IMG/VR virus record: IMGVR_UViG_3300033153_006784
Location: 10,375-74,374 of that record
DNA: 64,000 nt
Source: a virus
Lineage: Duplodnaviria > Heunggongvirae > Uroviricota > Caudoviricetes
Strand: one strand, 5' to 3'
The translations under genes were made by a program, and so were the position numbers. Under the pieces are notes generated by a model that had not been told where the DNA came from, did not search any database, and saw only the letters and a list, made by a program, of their open reading frames with translations. Shown piece after piece: positions 12,724 through 45,768 of this stretch; position 1 is the first letter of the stretch, and the number at the start of each line of letters is the position of its first letter.

Positions 12724-13142
12724 AAAGACCAGAATTAAAAGACAAAGAGAAAATTCAGTTCTTATCTAAAATTTTAGCAAGACTGTTCGGATATTCCGGA
12801 TCTGTTAAGTTAGATTGGAGACAAGAAATGTTTGGTGAATATCATCAACTAACATTAAAAAATGTAGATTTAAGTTATGACAATATAAGATTATTAGAAC
12901 CTTTATCTGCAATGTTTGATTTACAGTTAGATAACAGAGCTTATATTGGTGAAGAAGTTCTTGATAGTGATGATGGAAAGATTAGACTCATACATACTGA
13001 TCAAGATTTAGTTATAACAGAAAACTATGAGACACATCTACTAAGACTGTCACCAAAAAAATTCAAGAAAGAAAGAAGTCATTACGAGATAGAGTGGACA
13101 AAAGAAGACGAAGAAAAGTACGACCACAACACCGTAGAATAG
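12687..13142 (+). CDS. Hypothetical protein
   Basis: ORF overlapping its neighbour by 37 nt. Confidence 0.3.
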   Translation: MGSIIFMDAKKMKRPELKDKEKIQFLSKILARLFGYSGSVKLDWRQEMFGEYHQLTLKNVDLSYDNIRLLEPLSAMFDLQLDNRAYIGEEVLDSDDGKIRLIHTDQDLVITENYETHLLRLSPKKFKKERSHYEIEWTKEDEEKYDHNTVE

Positions 13143-27145: not shown

Positions 27146-27687
27146 AAGACGAGAACAAAACAAAGAAAATTTCAACCAAAGTGGGTATCACTGGAGCACA
27201 CAGTAGCGGTAAAACTACTAGAATTGAATTCATAACAGAAGTTTGTAAATTAATGAGATATCCATATATTATTGTTCCTGAATCAGCTAGGAGAGCTAAA
27301 GAAGTAGGGTTGGATATCAACAAAGAAGCTGATTATAAAGTTCAAAAGTGGATTATGGATGATCAAATAGTAAATGAACTTGATGCAGAACAAGACAGTA
27401 GATATAACACATTAATATTGTGTGATAGGACTGTGTGGGATGTAGTCGTTTATTCTTCATTTGCATTACAACGAGATATGCTAACACTTCCACAATATAA
27501 TATCTTAGAAGGACAAGCTAGACAACATGCAGTATTGTCTCCTTATGATAAAATTTATCTTTGTAAGCCTAGACCAATGATTGATGATGGTATCCGTGAT
27601 ACTGATGTCGAATGGCAAAGGCAACTCTTTGAAAGATTTGAATATTACTTTGCTATCAATGGTATAAGATACGAACTTCTCCGATAG
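27136..27687 (+). CDS. P-loop kinase/ATPase of the NadR C-terminal (ribosylnicotinamide kinase, AAA_28) type
   Basis: Walker A VGITGAHSSGKTT resembles the NadR ribosylnicotinamide-kinase (RNK) domain G(G)ESSGKST. Small size at 183 aa. Confidence 0.45.
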   Translation: MGMKDENKTKKISTKVGITGAHSSGKTTRIEFITEVCKLMRYPYIIVPESARRAKEVGLDINKEADYKVQKWIMDDQIVNELDAEQDSRYNTLILCDRTVWDVVVYSSFALQRDMLTLPQYNILEGQARQHAVLSPYDKIYLCKPRPMIDDGIRDTDVEWQRQLFERFEYYFAINGIRYELLR

Positions 27688-27719
27688 ATTTATAAATAAC
27701 CTCTTTCTATATAGGGTTA

Positions 27720-27793
27720 GTCCTGTTGGTAGAGCTTGGTAACATATCTGCTTGTCGAGCAGATGGTCGTGGGTTCAAATCCCGCACAGGACG
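27720..27793 (+). tRNA. tRNA-Asp (GTC), D arm atypical, no CCA
   Basis: Acceptor gtcctgt/acaggac (perfect), anticodon arm atctgc-ttGTCga-gcagat, T-arm gtggg-ttcaaat-cccgc. Confidence 0.65.
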
Positions 27794-27810
27794 CTTTCAA
27801 GGTGAATAAA

Positions 27811-28110
27811 ATGGATGAACAAAAAACGCAAACACTCATGTACGCAGCACTTCTAGTTAATGCTGGAGGATATGAAATTACAGAAGCAAGATTGCTAAGT
27901 GTAATAAATTCTGCTGGAATAGTGTTTGATAAAATTGAAATAAACAAAGTAGTAACAGCGTTACAGGGTATTGACATCCAAGAGGTTATCAAGAATCCTT
28001 TTGTAGCAGTTGAAAGTGCAGCAATTCTTCCAGAAGAAGAGGATGAAGAAGAAGTTATCGAACCAGAAATAGTAACAGGATTTGACATTCTGTTCGGAAA
28101 GGGCGAGTAA
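27811..28110 (+). CDS. Ribosomal stalk protein P1 (aP1/L12e)-like protein
   Basis: N-terminal YAALLVNAGGYEITEARLLSVINSAGIVFDKIEINKVVTALQGIDIQEVI, acidic EEEDEEE linker and C-terminal GFDILFG. This is the domain order and C-terminal motif (G[FL]xxLFG) of archaeal/eukaryal P1/P2 stalk proteins. The start is placed at the ATG at 27811 to clear tRNA-Asp. Confidence 0.7.
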   Translation: MDEQKTQTLMYAALLVNAGGYEITEARLLSVINSAGIVFDKIEINKVVTALQGIDIQEVIKNPFVAVESAAILPEEEDEEEVIEPEIVTGFDILFGKGE

Positions 28111-28185: not shown

Positions 28186-28779
28186 ATGATTAACATGAGT
28201 AAAGTCGGAGATTATTGGAAAAGTCATATTAATAAAACTAACATGAATTATGAAAAAGATTATGGCGGAGTAGATTATACTGATGCCGTAGTCCTTGATG
28301 TTGGTTGTTCTTTTCACACGCCTGATTTCTTTTTAGATAAAGGTGCAAAGCATGTAATAGGTATAGAAGCAATGCCTTCACGCATGGAAACGATTATAAA
28401 ATATGCCGAGAAGTTTGGTACAGTTACACCTATCACTAAATGGATCAAAAAAGTAGAACATTTAGAAGAAATATATCTAGCACACCCAGAAATAACACAT
28501 GCCAAATATGATTGTGATGGTTGCGAAACTGTCATTATAGATATGAAGCCTGAAATTTTTAGGATACCTAAATATTATGTGATGGAAGTTCATCAACATT
28601 ATTTACCTGTTATGGATTACTATGACAATCCTAAAGTTATAGGTATCTATCAAAAACTCCTTGACAAGTTCGAAGAGTGTGGTTATGAAATTATCTCAGC
28701 CAGTGAGGGCCCACCTGCTAAAGTCCTTGGAGGAAGAGTTTCAGCCGGAAATATTAAAGCCGTGAGAAAAGATGATTAG
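28186..28779 (+). CDS. Putative SAM-dependent methyltransferase (FkbM-like)
   Basis: VVLDVGCSFHTPDFFLDKGAKHVIGIEA (motif-I-like). Confidence 0.4.
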   Translation: MINMSKVGDYWKSHINKTNMNYEKDYGGVDYTDAVVLDVGCSFHTPDFFLDKGAKHVIGIEAMPSRMETIIKYAEKFGTVTPITKWIKKVEHLEEIYLAHPEITHAKYDCDGCETVIIDMKPEIFRIPKYYVMEVHQHYLPVMDYYDNPKVIGIYQKLLDKFEECGYEIISASEGPPAKVLGGRVSAGNIKAVRKDD

Positions 28780-29431
28780 ACATATAGAAGATGTCAGTTT
28801 AGTTGATTATCCCGAACATGTTGCTTCAGTTTTATTTTATGAAAACTGTAACCTGAGATGCCCTTATTGTCACAATCCTGAACTGCTAAGTCCGGGAAAT
28901 GGTCTATATTTTATGGATGTCTTGAAAAAATTAAAAGAGAACCGACTCATTGATGGTGTAGTATTTACTGGTGGTGAACCTTTACTTACCAATGGTCTTG
29001 CGTATGATTTGGCTCAGATAGATGCTCTAGGGTTAGATATTAAACTTGACACAAATGGTCTATTAACATCTAAATTGAAAAATGTATTTATACTGTTAGA
29101 TTATATTGCAATGGATATCAAATCAGACAAATGGGGATACAAACATTTAGGAGCTACCGATCTAGATTTTACGATGGTTCAAGCCAGTATCAAAGCTATC
29201 ATGGATTCTGGAATAGATTACGAGTTTAGATGTACTGCTGTAGATCCGTTCCTTACTGAAAGGTCTACTGATAGTATTGGAAAGTTGGTAGAAGGAGCCA
29301 AGCTGTTTTATATTCAACAACCTAACCTAGTTCATGTGCTTAATCCTGCGTTTTCTATGCGTCCAACCGAAAATCTTATAAAGATCAAAGATATATTAAG
29401 TTCATACGTCAACGAAGTGATAATAAGGTGA
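28772..29431 (+). CDS. Radical SAM protein of the glycyl-radical-activase / QueE-like small type
   Basis: YENCNLRCPYCHN (CxxxCxxC cluster at the N-terminus) plus VVFTGGEPLL. Confidence 0.7.
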   Translation: MIRHIEDVSLVDYPEHVASVLFYENCNLRCPYCHNPELLSPGNGLYFMDVLKKLKENRLIDGVVFTGGEPLLTNGLAYDLAQIDALGLDIKLDTNGLLTSKLKNVFILLDYIAMDIKSDKWGYKHLGATDLDFTMVQASIKAIMDSGIDYEFRCTAVDPFLTERSTDSIGKLVEGAKLFYIQQPNLVHVLNPAFSMRPTENLIKIKDILSSYVNEVIIR

Positions 29432-29597
29432 AAGTCGAAACTATCAGAAGTGATGGAAGAAGATCCGTTGATGATGATATAAAAGATATATTAAGAGGAA
29501 TTGTTGAATGGATTCCTTTTGCTGAATATGGAGAGACTTTGACACTTAAAATATTAATAGAAGACGACATGATAAAGATGATAAAAAAAAGTAGAAA

Positions 29598-33039: not shown

Positions 33040-35625
33040 ATGGTTGTCGGGAGAATAGTCTCCGCTTTCTATAAAGCACAGAAAGGTAGGTTTCCAAGAG
33101 TACATTTTGCTATTAGAACGCCAGAAGGTAAAAAAGTATTTCCTGAACCAGTGTACGTAACTGAAAAGCCTTACTTTTATATTAGAGATGAAGACAGAGA
33201 AGTTGCTAGAGTTACCATGATCTTACTAGGTATGGACTTGGGCGAAGATTTTAAATTTGTTGAGACTGATTATAGTTTTGGCATGGCTAACGGAAAAGTT
33301 GTCAGAGTAGAGTTGTGGGAACCTTGGAGAATAGGAGGTTTAAAAAAGCTATTTAGAAAGAAAAGTATAGAAATATATGAAGCAGACATACCTTATATTA
33401 GGAGACTAAAGATAGATAATGATATCTATTCTGGTATAAAGATTGAAAATGGTAAGTTTTCAGCATATAATGGTGAATTACCAGCACCTAGAATGTTATA
33501 CATTGACATTGAAGTAGACGATTCAAACGGTTTTCCTGAAACTCCCGGTGAGTTTTCAATTTTATGTATAGGAACAACCAATGATAAGGGAATAAACAAA
33601 TATTTCACATGGCAGTGGCCTAATACCACCGAATCAGCTATGATGAAAGACTTCTTTGATTATGCTAAAGAATATGATTATTTGATTGTATGGAATAAAG
33701 ACTTTGAATCAAAACATATACCTATGAGAGCGAGAAAATTAAATATCTGGGTAGAGTGGAAAATATTTAGATGGGTAGACTTGGCAGAATACTACAAGAT
33801 GTACAATCTTCAGTCTCACTATGAAAAATTACCTTATGCTTATCAAAAAACATTAGGAAAATTTAGAAAGAAAATGAAAGATGCAGGCGTTATAAAGTAT
33901 GAAAAGTTAGAAAGGCTCCCGAACTATTACAAGGCATGGAAGTCTAGCCCTGACAGGATGAGGGAAGTAAACATTTCACATGCCTATGCTTTATATGCTA
34001 TGGAGACAGCGATGGAAGTCATAAAGCTATACTCCAGCGTCGCAGATGAAGTTGGAATATTCCCGGACTACACTCACTTAAATTCTCACATAGTAGATAC
34101 AATGGCACTTAGAAAAATTAAGAACAGTAACAAGAGATGGATTATTAACTCATCAGGAGAATTCAGAGGTGGAAAGAAAGGATTCTCTGGAGCGGTAGTT
34201 TTCAAAGCAAAACGAGGAGTACACCCATTCGTGTTTCTGTTCGACTTTACATCACTGTATAATAGAATCATTCAATCTTATCTACTTGATCCAATTGCAT
34301 ATTTCCACTGGAAAGGAACGTTTACAGAAAACGGAGTAGATGAGTATATCAAGTTTGCGAGGACGTTTGGAGAAGTTTATGGTATCGAAGTAGAGTTTGA
34401 AGACGGTATAAAACGGCTACCCATTTTTCCTGCAATTCTACACCAACTAGAACAACGTAGAAACTTTTTAAAAGACGAAAGAAAAAAGCACCCTTACGGC
34501 TCACCACAGTATGAGATGTATGACTCTTTACAGAAAGCAGCCAAAGTAATTCTGCTGGCATGTTATGGAGTCCTTGGGATGTCTTCGAGCAGATGGGCAA
34601 TTGAAAAGGACATACCTGAATCAATGATATTAGTTACCGACAATGTTAGGACACTAGAAGATATTGAAATTGATTACAGAGTTCCCAATAAGCCACAAGA
34701 AAAATTTGTAGGGATGGTAACTTATATTGCAAGGAGTGCGTTGATTGGTTCAAAGGAATTCTTCGATGAAGATAAGAATGTAAACGTAATATATGGCGAC
34801 ACCGATTCAGACTTTGTAAATCCTGTCGATTTGATTGATCCATTGAAATCATACAAAACACTCACCAAAGAGGATTTGGAAAAGCTCTTCGCTTTCGGTA
34901 TGGAATACGGAGACAAGCTAGCAACGTTCTTCTCTGAACGATTCGAGGCAGGAATCGACATGAAACTTGAAAAGATATTCGATAGAGGAGTGTTTGGCAA
35001 AGTTAAAAAGCAATATTATTGTAGGACAATTTGGGATGAGGACTCAGGTTGGCAACTAGATGAAGATGGTAACTTAACATGGTATGAATATACTAAGGGA
35101 CTCCCCCTTGTTCGTTCAGACAGAACGACCTTCTTGAAAAATACACAAAGAGGTACTTTAAAAACGATGTTAGATAATCCACAAGAATTAGAAGCAATGT
35201 GGTCTGTGTTAGCCGAGGACTTTTACAAAAACAAATACGATCACGAACTTATACTAAGGATTGGAATTAAAAGAAGACTTGAAACCTATATCAAAAACAT
35301 AACACCTGTAATCCGAGCAGCTAGAAAGTTAGAAGCCAGAGGTGAAAAGATACGTCCCGGTGAAAAGGTGTCGTTTATAATACAAGACGTTGTAAATAAG
35401 AAAAAAGTATCTGAACCAATAGACGAAGGCTTAGAACCAAAAGACGCTGTAGCTATGTATCCACCTATCACGAAAGCCGCATTAGATTATTACTGGAAGG
35501 ATAGAATATGGAAAAATATCAAGCCTTTCTTAGAGCTAGTGCTGACAGAAAGAGAAATTGTAAAGATAGAACTGGCGAAAAAGAGAATGAAAAGTTTAGA
35601 TTCGTGGTTTAAACCTCAACCGTAA
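33040..35625 (+). CDS. polB: Family B DNA polymerase
   Basis: Exo I LYIDIEVDD, polymerase motif C VIYGDTDSDF (YGDTDS) and a 3'-5' exonuclease-plus-polymerase domain layout at 861 aa. Confidence 0.9.
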   Translation: MVVGRIVSAFYKAQKGRFPRVHFAIRTPEGKKVFPEPVYVTEKPYFYIRDEDREVARVTMILLGMDLGEDFKFVETDYSFGMANGKVVRVELWEPWRIGGLKKLFRKKSIEIYEADIPYIRRLKIDNDIYSGIKIENGKFSAYNGELPAPRMLYIDIEVDDSNGFPETPGEFSILCIGTTNDKGINKYFTWQWPNTTESAMMKDFFDYAKEYDYLIVWNKDFESKHIPMRARKLNIWVEWKIFRWVDLAEYYKMYNLQSHYEKLPYAYQKTLGKFRKKMKDAGVIKYEKLERLPNYYKAWKSSPDRMREVNISHAYALYAMETAMEVIKLYSSVADEVGIFPDYTHLNSHIVDTMALRKIKNSNKRWIINSSGEFRGGKKGFSGAVVFKAKRGVHPFVFLFDFTSLYNRIIQSYLLDPIAYFHWKGTFTENGVDEYIKFARTFGEVYGIEVEFEDGIKRLPIFPAILHQLEQRRNFLKDERKKHPYGSPQYEMYDSLQKAAKVILLACYGVLGMSSSRWAIEKDIPESMILVTDNVRTLEDIEIDYRVPNKPQEKFVGMVTYIARSALIGSKEFFDEDKNVNVIYGDTDSDFVNPVDLIDPLKSYKTLTKEDLEKLFAFGMEYGDKLATFFSERFEAGIDMKLEKIFDRGVFGKVKKQYYCRTIWDEDSGWQLDEDGNLTWYEYTKGLPLVRSDRTTFLKNTQRGTLKTMLDNPQELEAMWSVLAEDFYKNKYDHELILRIGIKRRLETYIKNITPVIRAARKLEARGEKIRPGEKVSFIIQDVVNKKKVSEPIDEGLEPKDAVAMYPPITKAALDYYWKDRIWKNIKPFLELVLTEREIVKIELAKKRMKSLDSWFKPQP

Positions 35626-35660: not shown

Positions 35661-36677
35661 ATGACTTTAAAAGATAATACTTCTGGTATTCTTTTGGATC
35701 AAAGTTCTGTAAGGACTATTGAAATTGATCTTCCGCTTTTAAATAGACAAAGAACTTACACATATATGAACAATGAAACCGTCATAAACGATATTTATGG
35801 CGAAACTATGTTCTTTGGCGACTGGCACCTTGGAAGCTCTGGATTTTCTAACAACTCTTTCAATGCCCACCTAACTTTGTTAAAACAGAACCCTCACATG
35901 AGAACTTTATTAACGGGAGACTACTTTGAATTTTCAGGAAAGACAAATTATATATCTGATGAAATCTTAGATATTGATGATCAGATTGACTTGTTTGTTA
36001 AGACTTTGAAACTTTTGAAACATCAAGTTATTGGAATTTTAGCTGGTAATCACGATAATCGTATTACAAAATATACTGGAATTAAAAAATACCTAAGACA
36101 TTATGCTAAAGAAGCAGGAATCGATGTCGATAAAATATATATTGGAGATCCGCAAAGAGGAATAAATATATTTTTCAGTGCTGGAGACTTTGTTTATTCC
36201 GCATACGGCATACATGGAAGTACAAGTGCTTGGAGAAATAAAAACACACAGCTAAAAAGAATGGCTGTTGGTAGAAGACATACATTGTTATTCATGGGAC
36301 ATGTTCATCAAATCTTGTGGGAACCTGTATTGTATCTAGAACCTACAAACAAAGGTGAAGTAGAAGCACGATTACAATACTGGTTAGCAACTGGTGGATT
36401 CTTAAAAGATGCTTCATACGCAGAAGCAAAAAGCTATCCTCCTAGTTTAGTCGGTGCTCCTATTGTTAGATTCTTCGCTAATAAAAATGAACTTGACATG
36501 TGGACAATGCCATACAGAAGCCACTACATACAAGGCGGAACTACTCCTCTTACGGGAATAGAAGGAAGTAACTTTATCGCTCGAAAAGATGAACGGAAGC
36601 GAAAACAGTTTCCAGTTTTGAATACTTTGAGCGAAAAATATACACCAAAATCTAAAACATCGGTCTTACCTCCATAG
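35661..36677 (+). CDS. Calcineurin-like metallophosphoesterase (Mre11/SbcD-like)
   Basis: Phosphoesterase motifs GDWHLG, GDYFE, GNHDNR and GHVHQ in order. Confidence 0.65.
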   Translation: MTLKDNTSGILLDQSSVRTIEIDLPLLNRQRTYTYMNNETVINDIYGETMFFGDWHLGSSGFSNNSFNAHLTLLKQNPHMRTLLTGDYFEFSGKTNYISDEILDIDDQIDLFVKTLKLLKHQVIGILAGNHDNRITKYTGIKKYLRHYAKEAGIDVDKIYIGDPQRGINIFFSAGDFVYSAYGIHGSTSAWRNKNTQLKRMAVGRRHTLLFMGHVHQILWEPVLYLEPTNKGEVEARLQYWLATGGFLKDASYAEAKSYPPSLVGAPIVRFFANKNELDMWTMPYRSHYIQGGTTPLTGIEGSNFIARKDERKRKQFPVLNTLSEKYTPKSKTSVLPP

Positions 36678-36720: not shown

Positions 36721-37284
36721 ATGAACAAATATAATGTTAAAGCCAAAGGTGTAACTGATCTTTTACCTCACAAATATATTGGGATTAGTCAAGCTAAAGA
36801 AGCTAACCAGTTGACAGATGATAAAGAGCGAGCAGAACGATTCACTTACAGAGATAAAAATGGTATGTTATGCATTCCCGTTGAATGTATAAGAGCAACA
36901 ATTATCAATGGATTTGTTGGAACTGCTGGGCCCAAGCAAAAAACTAAAACAAAGATGCACGTATCACCACGCATTAGAGTACAGTCTCTATCAGATTATG
37001 ATCTTACCAATGTTCCTCTGATGCTTAATGGAGAACATATAACATCTTATGAAATAGATAGAAGAAGTTATTCTGCTGGAGGCAGAAGCGGTGGAATCAG
37101 AGATTTCTGTGTCAGAGCAAAAATTCCAGAGTGGGAAATAGAATTCCAACTAATATCCACAGTTGACATTTCAAAGAAAGATTTGAAATATAAACTAGAT
37201 TTTGCTGGTTCAGATGTTGGCGTACTAAGTAATAGAGTAAATGGCTATGGTCGTTTCGAAATTACAAATCTTCAAAAAATCTAA
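36721..37284 (+). CDS. Hypothetical protein
   Basis: ORF only. Immediately upstream of the AGTNN array. Confidence 0.3.
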   Translation: MNKYNVKAKGVTDLLPHKYIGISQAKEANQLTDDKERAERFTYRDKNGMLCIPVECIRATIINGFVGTAGPKQKTKTKMHVSPRIRVQSLSDYDLTNVPLMLNGEHITSYEIDRRSYSAGGRSGGIRDFCVRAKIPEWEIEFQLISTVDISKKDLKYKLDFAGSDVGVLSNRVNGYGRFEITNLQKI

Positions 37285-37297
37285 TTTTTTGATACAA

Positions 37298-37975
37298 TAA
37301 AGTAGAGTTTAGTGAAGTCTAGTGTAGTGTAGTGCAGCCAAGTAGAGTGTAGTGCAGCTAAGTCTAGCAAAGTACAGTAAAGTGTAGTGCAGTATAGTCG
37401 AGTTTAGTGAAGTAGAGTGCAGTTAAGTCAAGTAAAGTACAGTAAAGTAGAGTGCAGTGAAGTTGAGTCGAGTGAAGTGGAGCATAGTGAAGTAAAGTAA
37501 AGTTGAGTGCAGTATAGTGGAGTTCAGTAGAGTGAAGTAAAGTACAGTCTAGTAAAGTTTAGTTCAGTAAAGCGAAGTTAAGTGGAGTGAAGCAGAGTAA
37601 AGTCAAGTAGAGTACAGTAAAGTACAGTCAAGTACAGTGAAGTAAAGTTCAGCGTAGTCTAGTGGAGTGAAGTTGAATTTAGCATTAGTTCAGTTGAGCT
37701 AAGTTAAGTGTAGTCGAGTAGAGTAAAGTTGAGTGAATTAAAGTACAGTACAGTAAAGTGAAGTGAAGTCAAGTAAAGTCAAGTAAAGTAAAGTGTAGTG
37801 GAGTATAGTGAAGTATAGTAAAGTCTAGCGAAGTTGAGTCGAGTGAAGTTTAATAGAGTTAAGTACAGTGGAGTATAGTTCAGTTAAGTGGAGTATAGTT
37901 TAGCGAAGTAAAGTGTAGTCAAGTACAGTAAAGTGAAGTAGAGTCCAGTATAGTGAAGTAAAGTGTAGTATAGGA
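37298..37975. repeat. Pentanucleotide array (AGTNN)n of about 136 units with an invariant AGT and a degenerate dinucleotide
   Basis: Strict 5-nt periodicity over about 680 nt. AGT (rarely AGC) is fixed and positions 4-5 use all 16 dinucleotides. There is one single-base phase slip near 37683. Stop codons in all frames. Lies between 36721-37284 and terL. Confidence 0.9.
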
Positions 37976-38012
37976 ATCCTTTTATACTACCTTTTATTTA
38001 TATATAACACTA

Positions 38013-39497
38013 ATGAGTTTAACCTCCGATGATCTAGCACCTGACCAGATGGAAGAGTTGCTAAGACTACAAACAGATCCACCGTATCTGTACGACAAAT
38101 TTTTCGCAACAGAAGATGAACCTTTTCCTTTTGTATATCAAACAGAAGTTTTAAGAGACGTTGCTAGTAAAAAATTTACCGAGTTAGTTATCCTGAAAGG
38201 CAGACAAATTGGTATGTCTTGGACTATGGGAATTCTTGCATGTTGGTATGGTATTATGAACCCAAACAAGACAATTTTAGTAGTAGCGTTCAACTTAGAC
38301 CAAGGACAGATTATATTAAATTATTGTAAACAGTTTTTATCACGGCTCAAAGTTTTAGGTGTCCACAGTTTATTCGTAGATGGTGCTAGTGCAAGAGAGA
38401 TTAGATTTACAAACGGTAGCAAAATCAAATGTTTCGGATGTACAGTCCCGGACGCTTATAATGTTCGTGGGCAGAAAGCAGACTTACTTTTAGTAGACGA
38501 AGCCGCATTTATCTATGATAGAATGTTCCCATCAATCACACCAACGACAGCAAACACAGGTGGAATTACAGTATTCTTATCTACTGCGGGTTCAGTTGGT
38601 TCATATTTCTACAGAAAATGGAGTGAAGGTAACAGAGCAAACGAATGGAGAAGAAAGTTAAAGAAAGGTTTTGAAATAGAAATAGATGAAAAAGACATAC
38701 CTAGTATCAAATCTTATACTATACCTTCAATTGAATGTAAGAGATTAACTCCGAAAAAATTAGAAGCTGAAAGGCGTGGTCTAGGCGAGATGAAATTCAA
38801 AAGAGAATACGAATGTATGTGGGCAGGTACAGCAGACCAAGTATTCATGAGAATCCCAACATACACCATGACAAAATCTATTACAAAATCAAATAGAATG
38901 TGCTTCGGAGGCATAGATGTAGGTAAAGTAAATGATCCTACAGTTCTTATGATCATTGAAGTATATATGGCTGAGATGAAAATAATACAAGAAGGCGTTA
39001 GAATGAGTGTTCAAGTACCATATAGAGTCATACATGGGAAATCGTGGGAACGTGCAACTCAGAAGGAAATTGCCGTAGATATTGCTACAAATATACATCC
39101 TCGTTTTCCGTGTAGATTGTACTCAATTGACGCTACGGGAGGATATGGAGAAGAATTACTAGGTACTTTGATAAACTTCGAGTTAAATTGTCGTGGACTT
39201 AAAGTTAAAACTAAAATGAAGAATGAAATGATGTTAGGAAGCCGAGCAATTAAAGGATTGTCAGATGCTTTCCAAGAAGAATTGCTTTGGGTCAACAATG
39301 ACGTTAATGACATCGTATCAACAGAACTTCTCTTTGAATTAAATGCTTATGTTGGAAAGCTCCGGGCTACTGGTCTTTATGTATTTGACTCAGTTATTGA
39401 CCGTGATCACATGGTCGATGCCCTTGCTCATGCATGGTCAGCACTCCAAGCTGGAGCATTTGATCCCTATTTATCAATAAAAAAGAGCAAATTTTAG
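38013..39497 (+). CDS. terL: Terminase large subunit
   Basis: Lambda-gpA-like deviant Walker A KGRQIGMSWT, Walker B LLLVDEAAFI and a C-terminal RNaseH-like nuclease block GGIDVGKVNDPTVLMIIE. Confidence 0.8.
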   Translation: MSLTSDDLAPDQMEELLRLQTDPPYLYDKFFATEDEPFPFVYQTEVLRDVASKKFTELVILKGRQIGMSWTMGILACWYGIMNPNKTILVVAFNLDQGQIILNYCKQFLSRLKVLGVHSLFVDGASAREIRFTNGSKIKCFGCTVPDAYNVRGQKADLLLVDEAAFIYDRMFPSITPTTANTGGITVFLSTAGSVGSYFYRKWSEGNRANEWRRKLKKGFEIEIDEKDIPSIKSYTIPSIECKRLTPKKLEAERRGLGEMKFKREYECMWAGTADQVFMRIPTYTMTKSITKSNRMCFGGIDVGKVNDPTVLMIIEVYMAEMKIIQEGVRMSVQVPYRVIHGKSWERATQKEIAVDIATNIHPRFPCRLYSIDATGGYGEELLGTLINFELNCRGLKVKTKMKNEMMLGSRAIKGLSDAFQEELLWVNNDVNDIVSTELLFELNAYVGKLRATGLYVFDSVIDRDHMVDALAHAWSALQAGAFDPYLSIKKSKF

Positions 39498-45602: not shown

Positions 45603-45768
45603 GACGGGTTAGCCAAGTCTGGCCGTAAGGCGTTACACTGCTAAGCAGGACGAAACTCGAAAGCAGGGCGATACTTGAATCAGAACGAAACTGGAACGGT
45701 CTGCACAGAAATGTAATCACTCCGTAACCAATCGGAGTGCAGGGGTTCAAATCCCCTACCCGTCGCCA
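45603..45768 (+). tRNA. tRNA-Ser (GCT), type II, with an intron of about 67 nt, CCA encoded
   Basis: Acceptor gacgggt/acccgtc (perfect), anticodon stem ttaca/tgtaa with loop ctGCTa(a). Insert about 45644-45710. Long variable arm cactccg-taaccaat-cggagtg, T-arm agggg-ttcaaat-cccct, CCA. Confidence 0.65.

What the first reader, a model, noticed from the sequence alone, without database searches (positions are those of the whole stretch)
37298..37975. About 680-bp array of around 136 pentamers (AGTNN)n with an invariant AGT and a fully randomised dinucleotide, immediately upstream of the terminase gene
The 5-bp period is strictly kept. One single-base slip occurs near 37683. AGT is conserved in almost every unit, while the two following positions sample all 16 dinucleotides. 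Selection or a copying mechanism therefore appears to act on the trinucleotide and its half-helical-turn spacing rather than on a repeated unit sequence. The array is non-coding, with stops in all six frames. It sits between a small unknown gene and terL, where pac/cos sites usually lie in tailed viruses. It could be a terminase recognition array, an origin or iteron field, a protein-titration array, or a transcribed (AGUNN)n RNA. I know of no described feature with this architecture.
Basis: seen in the sequence. Interest (0 to 1): 0.85.

Follow-up and report, generated by a model that had tools for sequence, protein, structure and literature searches.

The report
Phage VIPR guide-RNA repeat array
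The 5-base repeat array is real. It is the guide-RNA array of a phage VIPR system, in which a minimal Cas7-like protein binds (conserved trinucleotide + NN) repeat RNA; this kind of RNA-guided DNA recognition was first described in 2026 preprints, and it appears here in an unusually long, tail-less AGY form.

Summary
Window 37301-37971 carries 134 five-base units with A 134/134, G 131/134 and a pyrimidine 134/134 (T 123, C 11). All 16 NN dinucleotides occur, and one extra T at 37686 shifts the phase.

In 18 of 20 non-redundant vipr loci, a motif-blind period-5 detector finds such arrays within 1.5 kb of the gene. It finds none in the other 143 kb.

The conserved trinucleotide covaries with the protein. 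The G-loop residue that reads G1 in SUSP1 (D177) is Asp in GG-type loci and Ser/Thr in all 11 AG-type loci.

This is therefore a VIPR locus (bioRxiv 10.64898/2026.04.26.720920 and .720927). It differs from the described systems in three ways: AGY instead of GGY; about 134 uninterrupted repeats against 9-16 (at most 30); and no interspersed tails.

A syntenic Mre11-like phosphoesterase (35661-36677) is the likely accessory gene. No DNA target was found. Verdict: a new variant of a recently described kind.

The parts
35661..36677 (+). Candidate vipr-accessory gene (vap): a 338-aa calcineurin-like/Mre11-SbcD-like phosphoesterase, a predicted nuclease
   Evidence: It matches PHROG 7339 'DNA repair exonuclease' at E 6e-25. 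Its homologue in L116 hits Pfam Metallophos at 4.7e-06. A 336-348-aa homologue (30-41% identity, with conserved GDxH, GNHE and GHTH-type motifs) sits immediately upstream of vipr in the window, L074, L075 and L116, while the outer neighbours differ. Its role as a vap is inferred from this synteny only.
36721..37284 (+). vipr: a 187-aa minimal single-RRM RAMP (Cas7-like) protein
37271..37298 (+). Promoter-like site: TTCAAA, 16-nt spacer, TG-extended TACAAT. It would start transcription about 5-8 nt downstream, at the first repeat
   Evidence: Found by the consensus scan. This is a single match, and the count in the region is not enriched over shuffles (3 found against 5.1 expected). Only its position is suggestive.
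37301..37685 (+). vrRNA-type array, block 1: 77 units of AGY-NN
37686..37686 (+). Single extra T that shifts the 5-nt phase by one. It lies next to two degenerate units, AATTT and AGCAT
37687..37971 (+). vrRNA-type array, block 2: 57 units of AGY-NN
37965..38005 (+). 3' hairpin followed by a U-rich run. The stem is 11 bp (37965-37975 pairing with 37980-37990) and its 5' arm is made of the last two repeat units. CTTTTATTTATATAT follows. It is a terminator-like or 3'-cap element
   Evidence: strand folding gives MFE -16.6 kcal/mol and z -3.3, with 1 of 200 shuffles folding as well. The stock terminator scan did not call it, because it has only 2 G-C pairs.

Best explanation
The array is the guide-RNA (vrRNA) array of a phage-encoded VIPR (Viral Interference Programmable Repeat) system.

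Proposed mechanism. The array is transcribed in the same direction as vipr, possibly from its own promoter at 37271-37298, and ends at the 37965-38005 hairpin. Vipr protomers (gene 36721-37284) bind one per pentamer. Each sequesters the conserved A-G-Y bases and exposes the two variable bases. The exposed NN dinucleotides together specify a double-stranded DNA target, read with gaps; in SUSP1 the target is xNN xNN..., with one base skipped per unit. The presumed target is a competing phage or other mobile element. The bound filament would repress the target, or hand it to the adjacent Mre11-like phosphoesterase (35661-36677) for cleavage.

Shown here:
- the repeat anatomy;
- the RAMP fold and the homology to published Vipr;
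- the exclusive association of such arrays with vipr genes;
- covariation between the repeat's first base and the protein's G1-reading residue.

Taken from the preprints for SUSP1 and P. fulva: one protomer per repeat, NN pairing with a 1-nt skip, and transcriptional silencing.

Inferred, not shown, for this locus: transcription, the skip rule, the targets, the role of the nuclease, and how (or whether) a 134-unit tract without internal tails is divided into individual guides.
For: 1. Anatomy. There are 134 AGY-NN units, and the NN string is non-repetitive.

2. Protein. The upstream gene is a Cas7-like RAMP. It is homologous to SUSP1 Vipr. In SUSP1 the same profile hit is flanked by GGY-NN arrays with structured tails, as published.

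3. Association. In 18 of 20 non-redundant vipr loci a motif-blind detector finds period-5 arrays (3 conserved + 2 variable columns) within 1.5 kb of vipr: 3,912 array bases in 55.6 kb near the gene, against 0 in 143 kb elsewhere. AGY arrays lie on the vipr strand, with one weak low-diversity minus-strand chain in L110.

4. Specificity covariation. SUSP1 D177 hydrogen-bonds G1 of GGY. The aligned residue is Asp in SUSP1, in all 3 other GG-type loci, in L105 (no array detected) and in all 4 GCA-type loci. It is Ser or Thr in all 11 AG-type loci, spread over at least four clades and including the window.

5. Modularity. The close relatives L115 and L116 share an 11-unit block inside otherwise different contiguous arrays. 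A block of that size matches a guide-sized module.

6. Boundaries. A promoter-like site and a 3' hairpin with a U-run bracket the array.

7. Published mechanism.
Against: - No target was found. The window itself holds none. Four 9-unit exact 1-nt-skip patterns gave either no hits or only chance hits that did not extend. A degenerate-codon peptide profile of all 134 units found nothing among 5.8 billion proteins.
- The published systems use GGY. In SUSP1 a GGY>AGY change was among the motif perturbations tested, and perturbing the motif abolished silencing.
- Published vrRNAs have 9-16 repeats (up to 30) and a conserved structured 3' tail. Here 134 units run on with no internal tail or punctuation.
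- The window clade lacks about 12 residues, relative to SUSP1 Vipr, in the N-terminal helical region. The skip rule could therefore differ.
- NN composition does not separate 'codon positions 1-2' from genomic background: -518 against -517 bits.
- Transcription is not demonstrated.
Confidence: 0.87

Rival explanations
1. The array is Vipr-binding RNA that does not act as a guide. A 670-nt (AGUNN)134 transcript might nucleate one long Vipr filament that serves as a store or sponge, an autoregulator of vipr, or a decoy that titrates Vipr proteins of rival AGY-type systems. In that case the NN content would be unconstrained.
For: No target was found. Nothing internal would delimit guides. NN composition cannot be told apart from genomic background. 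The length is more than four times the longest reported natural vrRNA.
Against: The NN string has no repeats of 5 or more units. Slippage-grown filler would be expected to be repetitive. L115 and L116 conserve an 11-unit block exactly while the surrounding units differ, as expected for selected guide modules. All characterised vrRNAs are guides. The target search was shallow: exact matches only, with 4 windows tested.
Confidence: 0.08
2. The array is a terminase recognition (pac/cos) array. TerS or TerL would bind AGT triplets spaced by half a helical turn, upstream of terL.
For: The array lies 41 bp upstream of terL. In L116 a vipr array also lies about 1.8 kb upstream of a terL gene.
Against: Across relatives the arrays track vipr, not terL. 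SUSP1 has vipr and its arrays at about 27.5-29.5 kb and terL at 22-1623. In L060 the arrays sit among HicAB-like and other genes. In L107 and L114 the arrays lie upstream of vipr. The conserved trinucleotide covaries with a Vipr RNA-contact residue. The motif keeps to the vipr strand, which a dsDNA-binding site does not require.
Confidence: 0.02
3. The array is a replication origin or iteron field next to the replication module (DNA polymerase B at 33040-35625, exonuclease at 35661-36677).
For: It lies at the boundary between the replication genes and the packaging genes.
Against: GC skew shows no inflection at the site; cumulative skew rises monotonically across the window. Iterons are 17-22-bp units of conserved sequence, not 3+2 pentamers. 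The same association arguments apply as for the pac hypothesis.
Confidence: 0.02
4. The array is an assembly or sequencing artefact.
For: A near-identical contig differs by 4 units and has an N gap inside its array. Several homologous short contigs end inside arrays.
Against: About 130 units are identical base for base in two independent contigs. Arrays of the same design occur next to vipr in dozens of independent assemblies and in the cultured phage SUSP1. Only the exact unit count is in doubt.
Confidence: 0.01

Closest known systems
VIPR systems, type II as in Escherichia phage SUSP1 and a Pseudomonas fulva prophage (bioRxiv 10.64898/2026.04.26.720920 and 10.64898/2026.04.26.720927)
   Same: - The system is phage-encoded.
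- The protein is a single RAMP of about 20 kDa with a G-loop and a thumb, and it is homologous by sequence profile.
- The adjacent, same-strand tandem pentanucleotide array has three conserved and two hypervariable positions, with a pyrimidine at position 3.
- An accessory gene lies next to vipr.
- The arrays are modular between relatives.
   Different: - The conserved motif is A-G-Y, not G-G-Y, and position 1 is A in 134/134 units.
- The G1-contacting Asp is replaced by Ser, and the G2-stacking Trp by Asn.
- About 134 contiguous units, against 9-16 (up to 30 reported).
- No conserved structured tail after each guide; there is only one terminal hairpin.
- The neighbouring accessory candidate is a Metallophos nuclease-like protein, not the DNA-binding vap1.
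- The N-terminal helical region is shorter.
- The preprint mentions 'a related consensus' and YNNNG-type repeats for other types. I could not see the figures, so the AGY clade may already be among its seven types.
Class 1 CRISPR backbone: Cas7 family (Csm3, Cmr4, Cmr6, Csf2) polymerised on crRNA
   Different: - The period is 5 nt with sequence-specific capture of 3 bases, against 6 nt with no sequence requirement.
- There are no CRISPR repeats or spacers.
- No other RAMP or other recognisable cas gene was seen among the neighbours that were scanned.
- The guide is read discontinuously.
TRAP-type (G/U)AG-NN repeat RNA (Bacillus trp attenuation)
   Same: An RNA has a conserved triplet repeated every 5 nt, and each triplet is bound by one subunit of a protein oligomer. 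This comparison rests on my own knowledge of TRAP.
   Different: TRAP sites have 11 triplets of GAG or UAG. Here the base before AG is A 55, T 30, G 27 and C 22, so it is not enriched for G or U, and the conserved third base is a pyrimidine after AG. The partner protein is a RAMP, not a TRAP beta-sandwich ring.

Membership tests
VIPR system | Vipr protein: a small single-RRM RAMP with a glycine-rich loop and a thumb, outside any CRISPR-cas context | tested here: met
VIPR system | Sequence homology to an experimentally characterised Vipr (SUSP1) | tested here: met
   The profile of the window and Bacteroidales-phage clades hits SUSP1 ORF (-)28477-29079 at E 7.9e-44. The window clade alone against SUSP1 Vipr gives hhalign 92%, E 6.8e-07, over the thumb-to-G-loop region. 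The window clade against the second clade gives 98.1%.
VIPR system | Tandem pentanucleotide repeats with a conserved trinucleotide alternating with a hypervariable NN, in an intergenic region flanking vipr | tested here: met
   The array starts 17 nt after the vipr stop codon and lies on the same strand.
VIPR system | GGY as the conserved trinucleotide (YNNGG register) | tested here: not met
   The motif here is AGY: A 134/134, G 131/134, Y 134/134. The preprint allows 'a related consensus' (NNNGG, YNNNG, NNNNG). The change is matched by Asp to Ser at the G1-reading position.
VIPR system | Individual vrRNAs of 9-16 (up to 30) repeats, each capped by a conserved structured 3' tail | tested here: not met
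   The array has 134 contiguous units with no internal tail, no punctuation motif and no repeated block. There is one hairpin at the 3' end only. The relatives L116 (70 units) and L115 (about 48) are also tail-less.
VIPR system | NN positions match DNA of competing mobile elements under the 1-nt skip rule | tested here: inconclusive
   No match of 8 or more out of 10 units occurs in the window at skip 0-2; at skip 3 there were two 8/10 windows, which I did not examine. Four exact 9-unit patterns gave 0 hits, or 6-7 chance hits without real extension. The degenerate-peptide profile gave no hit.
VIPR system | An accessory vap gene next to vipr with a predicted DNA-directed function | tested here: met
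   A Metallophos/Mre11-like 336-348-aa gene lies directly upstream of vipr in the window, L074, L075 and L116. Its assignment as a vap rests on synteny only.
VIPR system | The vrRNA is expressed and co-purifies with Vipr, and the complex silences or restricts its target | not testable with these tools
   This needs RNA-seq, pull-down and reporter or plaque assays.
CRISPR-Cas (class 1) | An array of identical direct repeats separated by unique spacers | tested here: not met
   TRF and the period-5 scan show only the 5-nt array; no 24-48-nt repeats are present.
Terminase pac/cos site | The element keeps its position relative to the terminase genes in related phages | tested here: not met
   The arrays co-localise with vipr wherever it lies, including far from terL in SUSP1.
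TRAP-binding RNA | GAG/UAG triplets, with G or U preferred before AG | tested here: not met
   The base preceding AG is A 41%, T 22%, G 20% and C 16%. The partner protein has a RAMP fold.

The most novel reading that the evidence does not exclude
The roughly 134-unit, tail-less AGY/NN tract may be a vrRNA architecture not covered by the preprints. One possibility is a single 670-nt guide that assembles a filament of about 134 Vipr protomers and reads a DNA footprint of about 400 bp. The other is a maximally compact multi-guide array whose guides are delimited by a protein ruler or by random phasing rather than by RNA tails. In either case the Asp-to-Ser/Thr switch in the G-loop would be a natural determinant that re-programmes which base Vipr captures at repeat position 1. 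That would allow orthogonal GGY and AGY systems to coexist in one cell.
Probability: 0.3. Interest if true: 0.7.

Novelty: new variant of a known kind. Interest (0 to 1): 0.55.

Why it matters
VIPR is a newly reported, very small RNA-guided system for recognising double-stranded DNA. It has been proposed as an ancestor of the CRISPR RAMPs.

This locus extends the known range in three ways that bear on mechanism:
- **A different captured trinucleotide (AGY), with a matching change in the protein's base-reading residue.** This gives a testable specificity rule and a route to orthogonal systems.
- **A repeat tract more than four times longer than any reported, with no tails.** This raises the question of how filament length and guide boundaries are set.
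- **A phage-borne pairing with an Mre11-like nuclease.** The preprint associates nuclease vaps mainly with host defence islands.

The locus also shows that such arrays break short-read assemblies, so VIPR loci are probably under-counted in metagenomes.

Tried and rejected
- **Known RNA family.** Rfam gave only tRNAs, both at gathering threshold on the window and at E-value threshold on five related loci.
- **Sequence annotation of the upstream protein.** Pfam, NCBIfam and PDB phmmer gave nothing. Only the fold search identified it.
- **TRAP- or HutP-like triplet-repeat RNA sponge.** I considered this first and dropped it on the base preceding AG and on the RAMP fold.
- **Relatives through TerL.** No relatives were found in IMG/VR. 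There was no DNA match in INPHARED. TerL is only 23-29% identical to cultured phages, so the host remains unknown.
- **Exact (AGTNN)x10 search of IMG/VR.** Of the 73 loci returned, most were simple low-entropy microsatellites. Only about 10 were true degenerate arrays, and those led to the gene association.
- **Target search.** A self-scan at skips 0-3 found nothing at skips 0-2 and two unexamined 8/10 windows at skip 3. Three viral, one metagenome and one genome scan used 9-unit 1-nt-skip patterns and returned nothing or chance hits only. A profile of 36 random codon-box decodings of the 134 NN, searched against 5.8 billion proteins, found nothing at E <= 10.
- **Codon-position test on NN composition.** It did not discriminate from genomic background.
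- **Internal punctuation.** AGC, AAT and ATT units are irregularly spaced. Repeated unit k-mers are not significant: k=3 P=0.06, and none at k>=5.
- **Whole-array RNA fold.** The z of -5.2 comes from in-register pairing of a periodic sequence at only -0.2 kcal/mol per nt. I do not read it as a defined structure.
- **Supplementary tables of the preprint.** They are not held, so I could not check whether the AGY clade is among its seven types.

Full report
**1. The observation**

Reading 37000-38300 and counting by position confirms the array. From 37301 to 37971 there are 134 five-base units.
- Position 1 is A in all 134 units.
- Position 2 is G in 131.
- Position 3 is always a pyrimidine (T 123, C 11).
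- Positions 4 and 5 carry 0.13 and 0.10 bits, use all 16 dinucleotides, and are statistically independent (chi-square p = 0.90).

One extra T at 37686 shifts the phase once. Tandem Repeats Finder sees only multiples of five. No ORF of 40 aa or more crosses the tract on either strand. A motif-blind scan for 'three conserved plus two variable columns at period 5' finds exactly one such tract in the 64-kb window, at 37288-37983. The string of NN dinucleotides has no repeated block of five or more units, so it is not slippage filler.

**2. Surroundings**

All long ORFs are on the plus strand, and the window carries 17 tRNA genes. It has no DNA match among 50,697 GenBank phage records.

Upstream of the array lie:
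- a B-family DNA polymerase (33040-35625);
- a 338-aa 'DNA repair exonuclease' (35661-36677, PHROG 7339);
- a 187-aa ORF of unknown function (36721-37284).

Downstream lies terL (38013-39497).

**3. How the identification was reached**

An exact search for ten consecutive AGTNN units in IMG/VR returned 73 loci. Most were low-entropy microsatellites, but about ten held degenerate arrays like this one.

In those loci the arrays lay just downstream of an ORF of about 190 aa whose C-terminus resembled that of the window's 187-aa ORF. Profile-profile comparison of the two groups gave 98.1% probability, E 7.6e-14. Closer homologues of the window protein (45-61% identity) come from short contigs that carry, or end inside, (AGCNN)n arrays.

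A literature search then found two 2026 bioRxiv preprints that describe this combination as VIPR systems. In summary, they report:
- a ~20-kDa phage-encoded RAMP (Vipr) polymerises along a vrRNA made of GGY/NN pentamers, one protomer per repeat;
- the GGY bases are sequestered and the NN bases pair with double-stranded DNA, skipping one target base per unit;
- natural guides target satellites and rival prophages;
- seven types exist, with various accessory (vap) genes.

**4. Tests of membership**

- *Homology to the reference protein.* I fetched SUSP1 (KT454805). The profile of my family hits its ORF (-)28477-29079 at E 7.9e-44, and GGY-NN arrays with structured tails flank that ORF. The window clade alone aligns to SUSP1 Vipr at 92%, E 6.8e-07, over the thumb-to-G-loop region.
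- *Association.* In 20 non-redundant vipr loci, 18 have period-5 arrays within 1.5 kb of the gene: 3,912 array bases in 55.6 kb. No array base occurs in the remaining 143 kb. AGY arrays lie on the vipr strand, with one weak low-diversity minus-strand chain in L110.
- *Specificity covariation.* The companion preprint states that in SUSP1, G1 is read by H17 and D177, G2 by R138 and W178, and Y3 by a narrow pocket. In my alignments the D177 position behaves as follows:
  - Asp in SUSP1, the three other GG-type loci and L105 (no array detected);
  - Asp in the four GCA-type loci, which instead have Phe at the R138 position;
  - Ser or Thr in all eleven AG-type loci, from at least four clades.
  
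  The window protein reads L-S-N-R where SUSP1 reads G-D-W-R. This argues that the invariant A is read directly by the protein. It also explains why AGY works here, although GGY>AGY was among the motif perturbations that abolished silencing in SUSP1.
- *Accessory gene.* A 336-348-aa Metallophos (Mre11/SbcD-like) protein sits immediately upstream of vipr in the window, L074, L075 and L116 at 30-41% identity, while the outer neighbours differ. It is the likely vap, on synteny alone.

**5. What is different here**

- *Motif.* It is AGY, not GGY. The preprint mentions 'a related consensus' and lists NNNGG, YNNNG and NNNNG repeats. An invariant A is not described in the text I could read, and the supplementary data are not held.
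- *Length and architecture.* Published vrRNAs have 9-16 repeats, 'some reaching up to 30', and each ends in a conserved structured tail. Here 134 units run without a tail, a punctuation motif or a repeated block. The relatives L116 (70 units) and L115 (about 48) are built the same way. L115 and L116 share one exact 11-unit block inside otherwise different arrays, which suggests guide-sized modules joined end to end.
- *Other architectures in the family.* Other clades use tRNA-like minihelices (L060, L023), a ~70-nt hairpin element (L106), ~55-nt hairpins (L107, L114) or a 14-nt motif (L110) between tracts.
- *Array boundaries in the window.* The array is bracketed by a TG-extended promoter-like site (37271-37298) and by an 11-bp hairpin followed by a U-run (37965-38005; z -3.3). 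This is compatible with a discrete transcript of about 700 nt.

**6. Targets**

Under the 1-nt skip rule I found no match in the window itself. Exact 9-unit patterns gave the following:

| Units | Collection | Result |
|---|---|---|
| 40-48, 98-106, 14-22 | IMG/VR | no hits |
| 122-130 | JGI metagenomes | six hits, five with no extension and one extending by a single unit |
| 14-22 | GTDB genomes | seven hits, none extending |

A profile of 36 random codon-box decodings of all 134 NN, which assumes that the skipped base is the wobble position, found nothing among 5.8 billion proteins.

NN composition fits codon positions 1-2 in sense better than the other frames or the antisense strand, but no better than genomic background. 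The guide function is therefore inferred from homology, not demonstrated. The search was shallow: it allowed exact matches only and covered about a quarter of the array.

**7. Reliability of the length**

A second metagenome contig has identical vipr (564/564) and terL (1484/1485). Its array has four additional units after unit 34 and a run of N inside it. Several homologous contigs stop inside arrays. The array is real, but its exact unit count is either polymorphic or limited by assembly.

**8. Verdict**

The pac and origin readings are rejected, and the 'transcribed repeat RNA' reading is right.

The feature belongs to a kind described in 2026 preprints (VIPR), so it is not categorically new. 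It is a distinct variant in three respects: AGY capture with a matching protein substitution, an uninterrupted tract of about 134 units, and a phage-borne Mre11-like partner.

Interest is moderate (0.55). It is high for anyone working on VIPR mechanism, but the main surprise has already been published.

Noticed in passing
window 45603-45765 (+): An Rfam tRNA match (37.9 bits) spans 163 nt, so this is a tRNA-like gene with a long insertion or intron. ARAGORN did not call it.
   Followed up: no
L060 (-) 7268-7445; L023 (-) 12825-13005: In Bacteroidales-phage VIPR loci, each ~10-15-unit AGT array is followed by a tRNA-like minihelix: an acceptor-like 7-bp stem plus a T-arm with a GTTCGAnTC loop. 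These tails could be cut by RNase P or RNase Z. The VIPR preprint text mentions hammerhead ribozymes but never tRNA.
   Followed up: partly
L106 3476-4162: Six ~10-unit AGT arrays alternate with a conserved, strongly folding ~70-nt element (z -3.75). The layout resembles a CRISPR array.
   Followed up: partly
L111, L112, L113, L114 (for example L114 153-496): These vipr loci have arrays whose conserved trinucleotide is GCA. Their Vipr keeps the G1-reading Asp but has Phe where SUSP1 has the G2-contacting R138. This is a second apparent covariation between the repeat motif and the protein.
   Followed up: partly
L110 4486-4925: GGC-type tracts here are separated only by a ~14-nt GCGAGGCTCGGAAC motif. 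The architecture is compact and lies between tailed arrays and tail-less ones.
   Followed up: no
L063 300-1000 (-), contig IMGVR_UViG_3300023256_000001: This locus has multi-block AGT arrays with interspersed ~45-nt elements, but no vipr homologue was detected within the 11 kb fetched. Either vipr lies further away or these are orphan arrays.
   Followed up: no
L117 3565-4376, compared with window 37285-38012: The two contigs have identical flanking genes, yet the L117 array has a 20-nt (4-unit) insertion bounded by the direct repeat AGTGAAGT, plus an N gap. The cause is either array polymorphism or assembly error.
   Followed up: yes
L118 (SUSP1) 27500-28030 and 29060-29510: Individual AGT units occur inside the GGY arrays of SUSP1 itself (for example GGTTC AGTCA GGTAA AGTGT). 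A at repeat position 1 is therefore tolerated at some positions even in a GG-type system.
   Followed up: no
L060 5864-6534 (-): A HicA/HicB-like toxin-antitoxin pair, recognised by eye from the sequences, lies directly downstream of the VIPR module. A conserved ~150-180-aa gene sits between the two arrays in L060, L023 and L106 and is probably that clade's vap.
   Followed up: no
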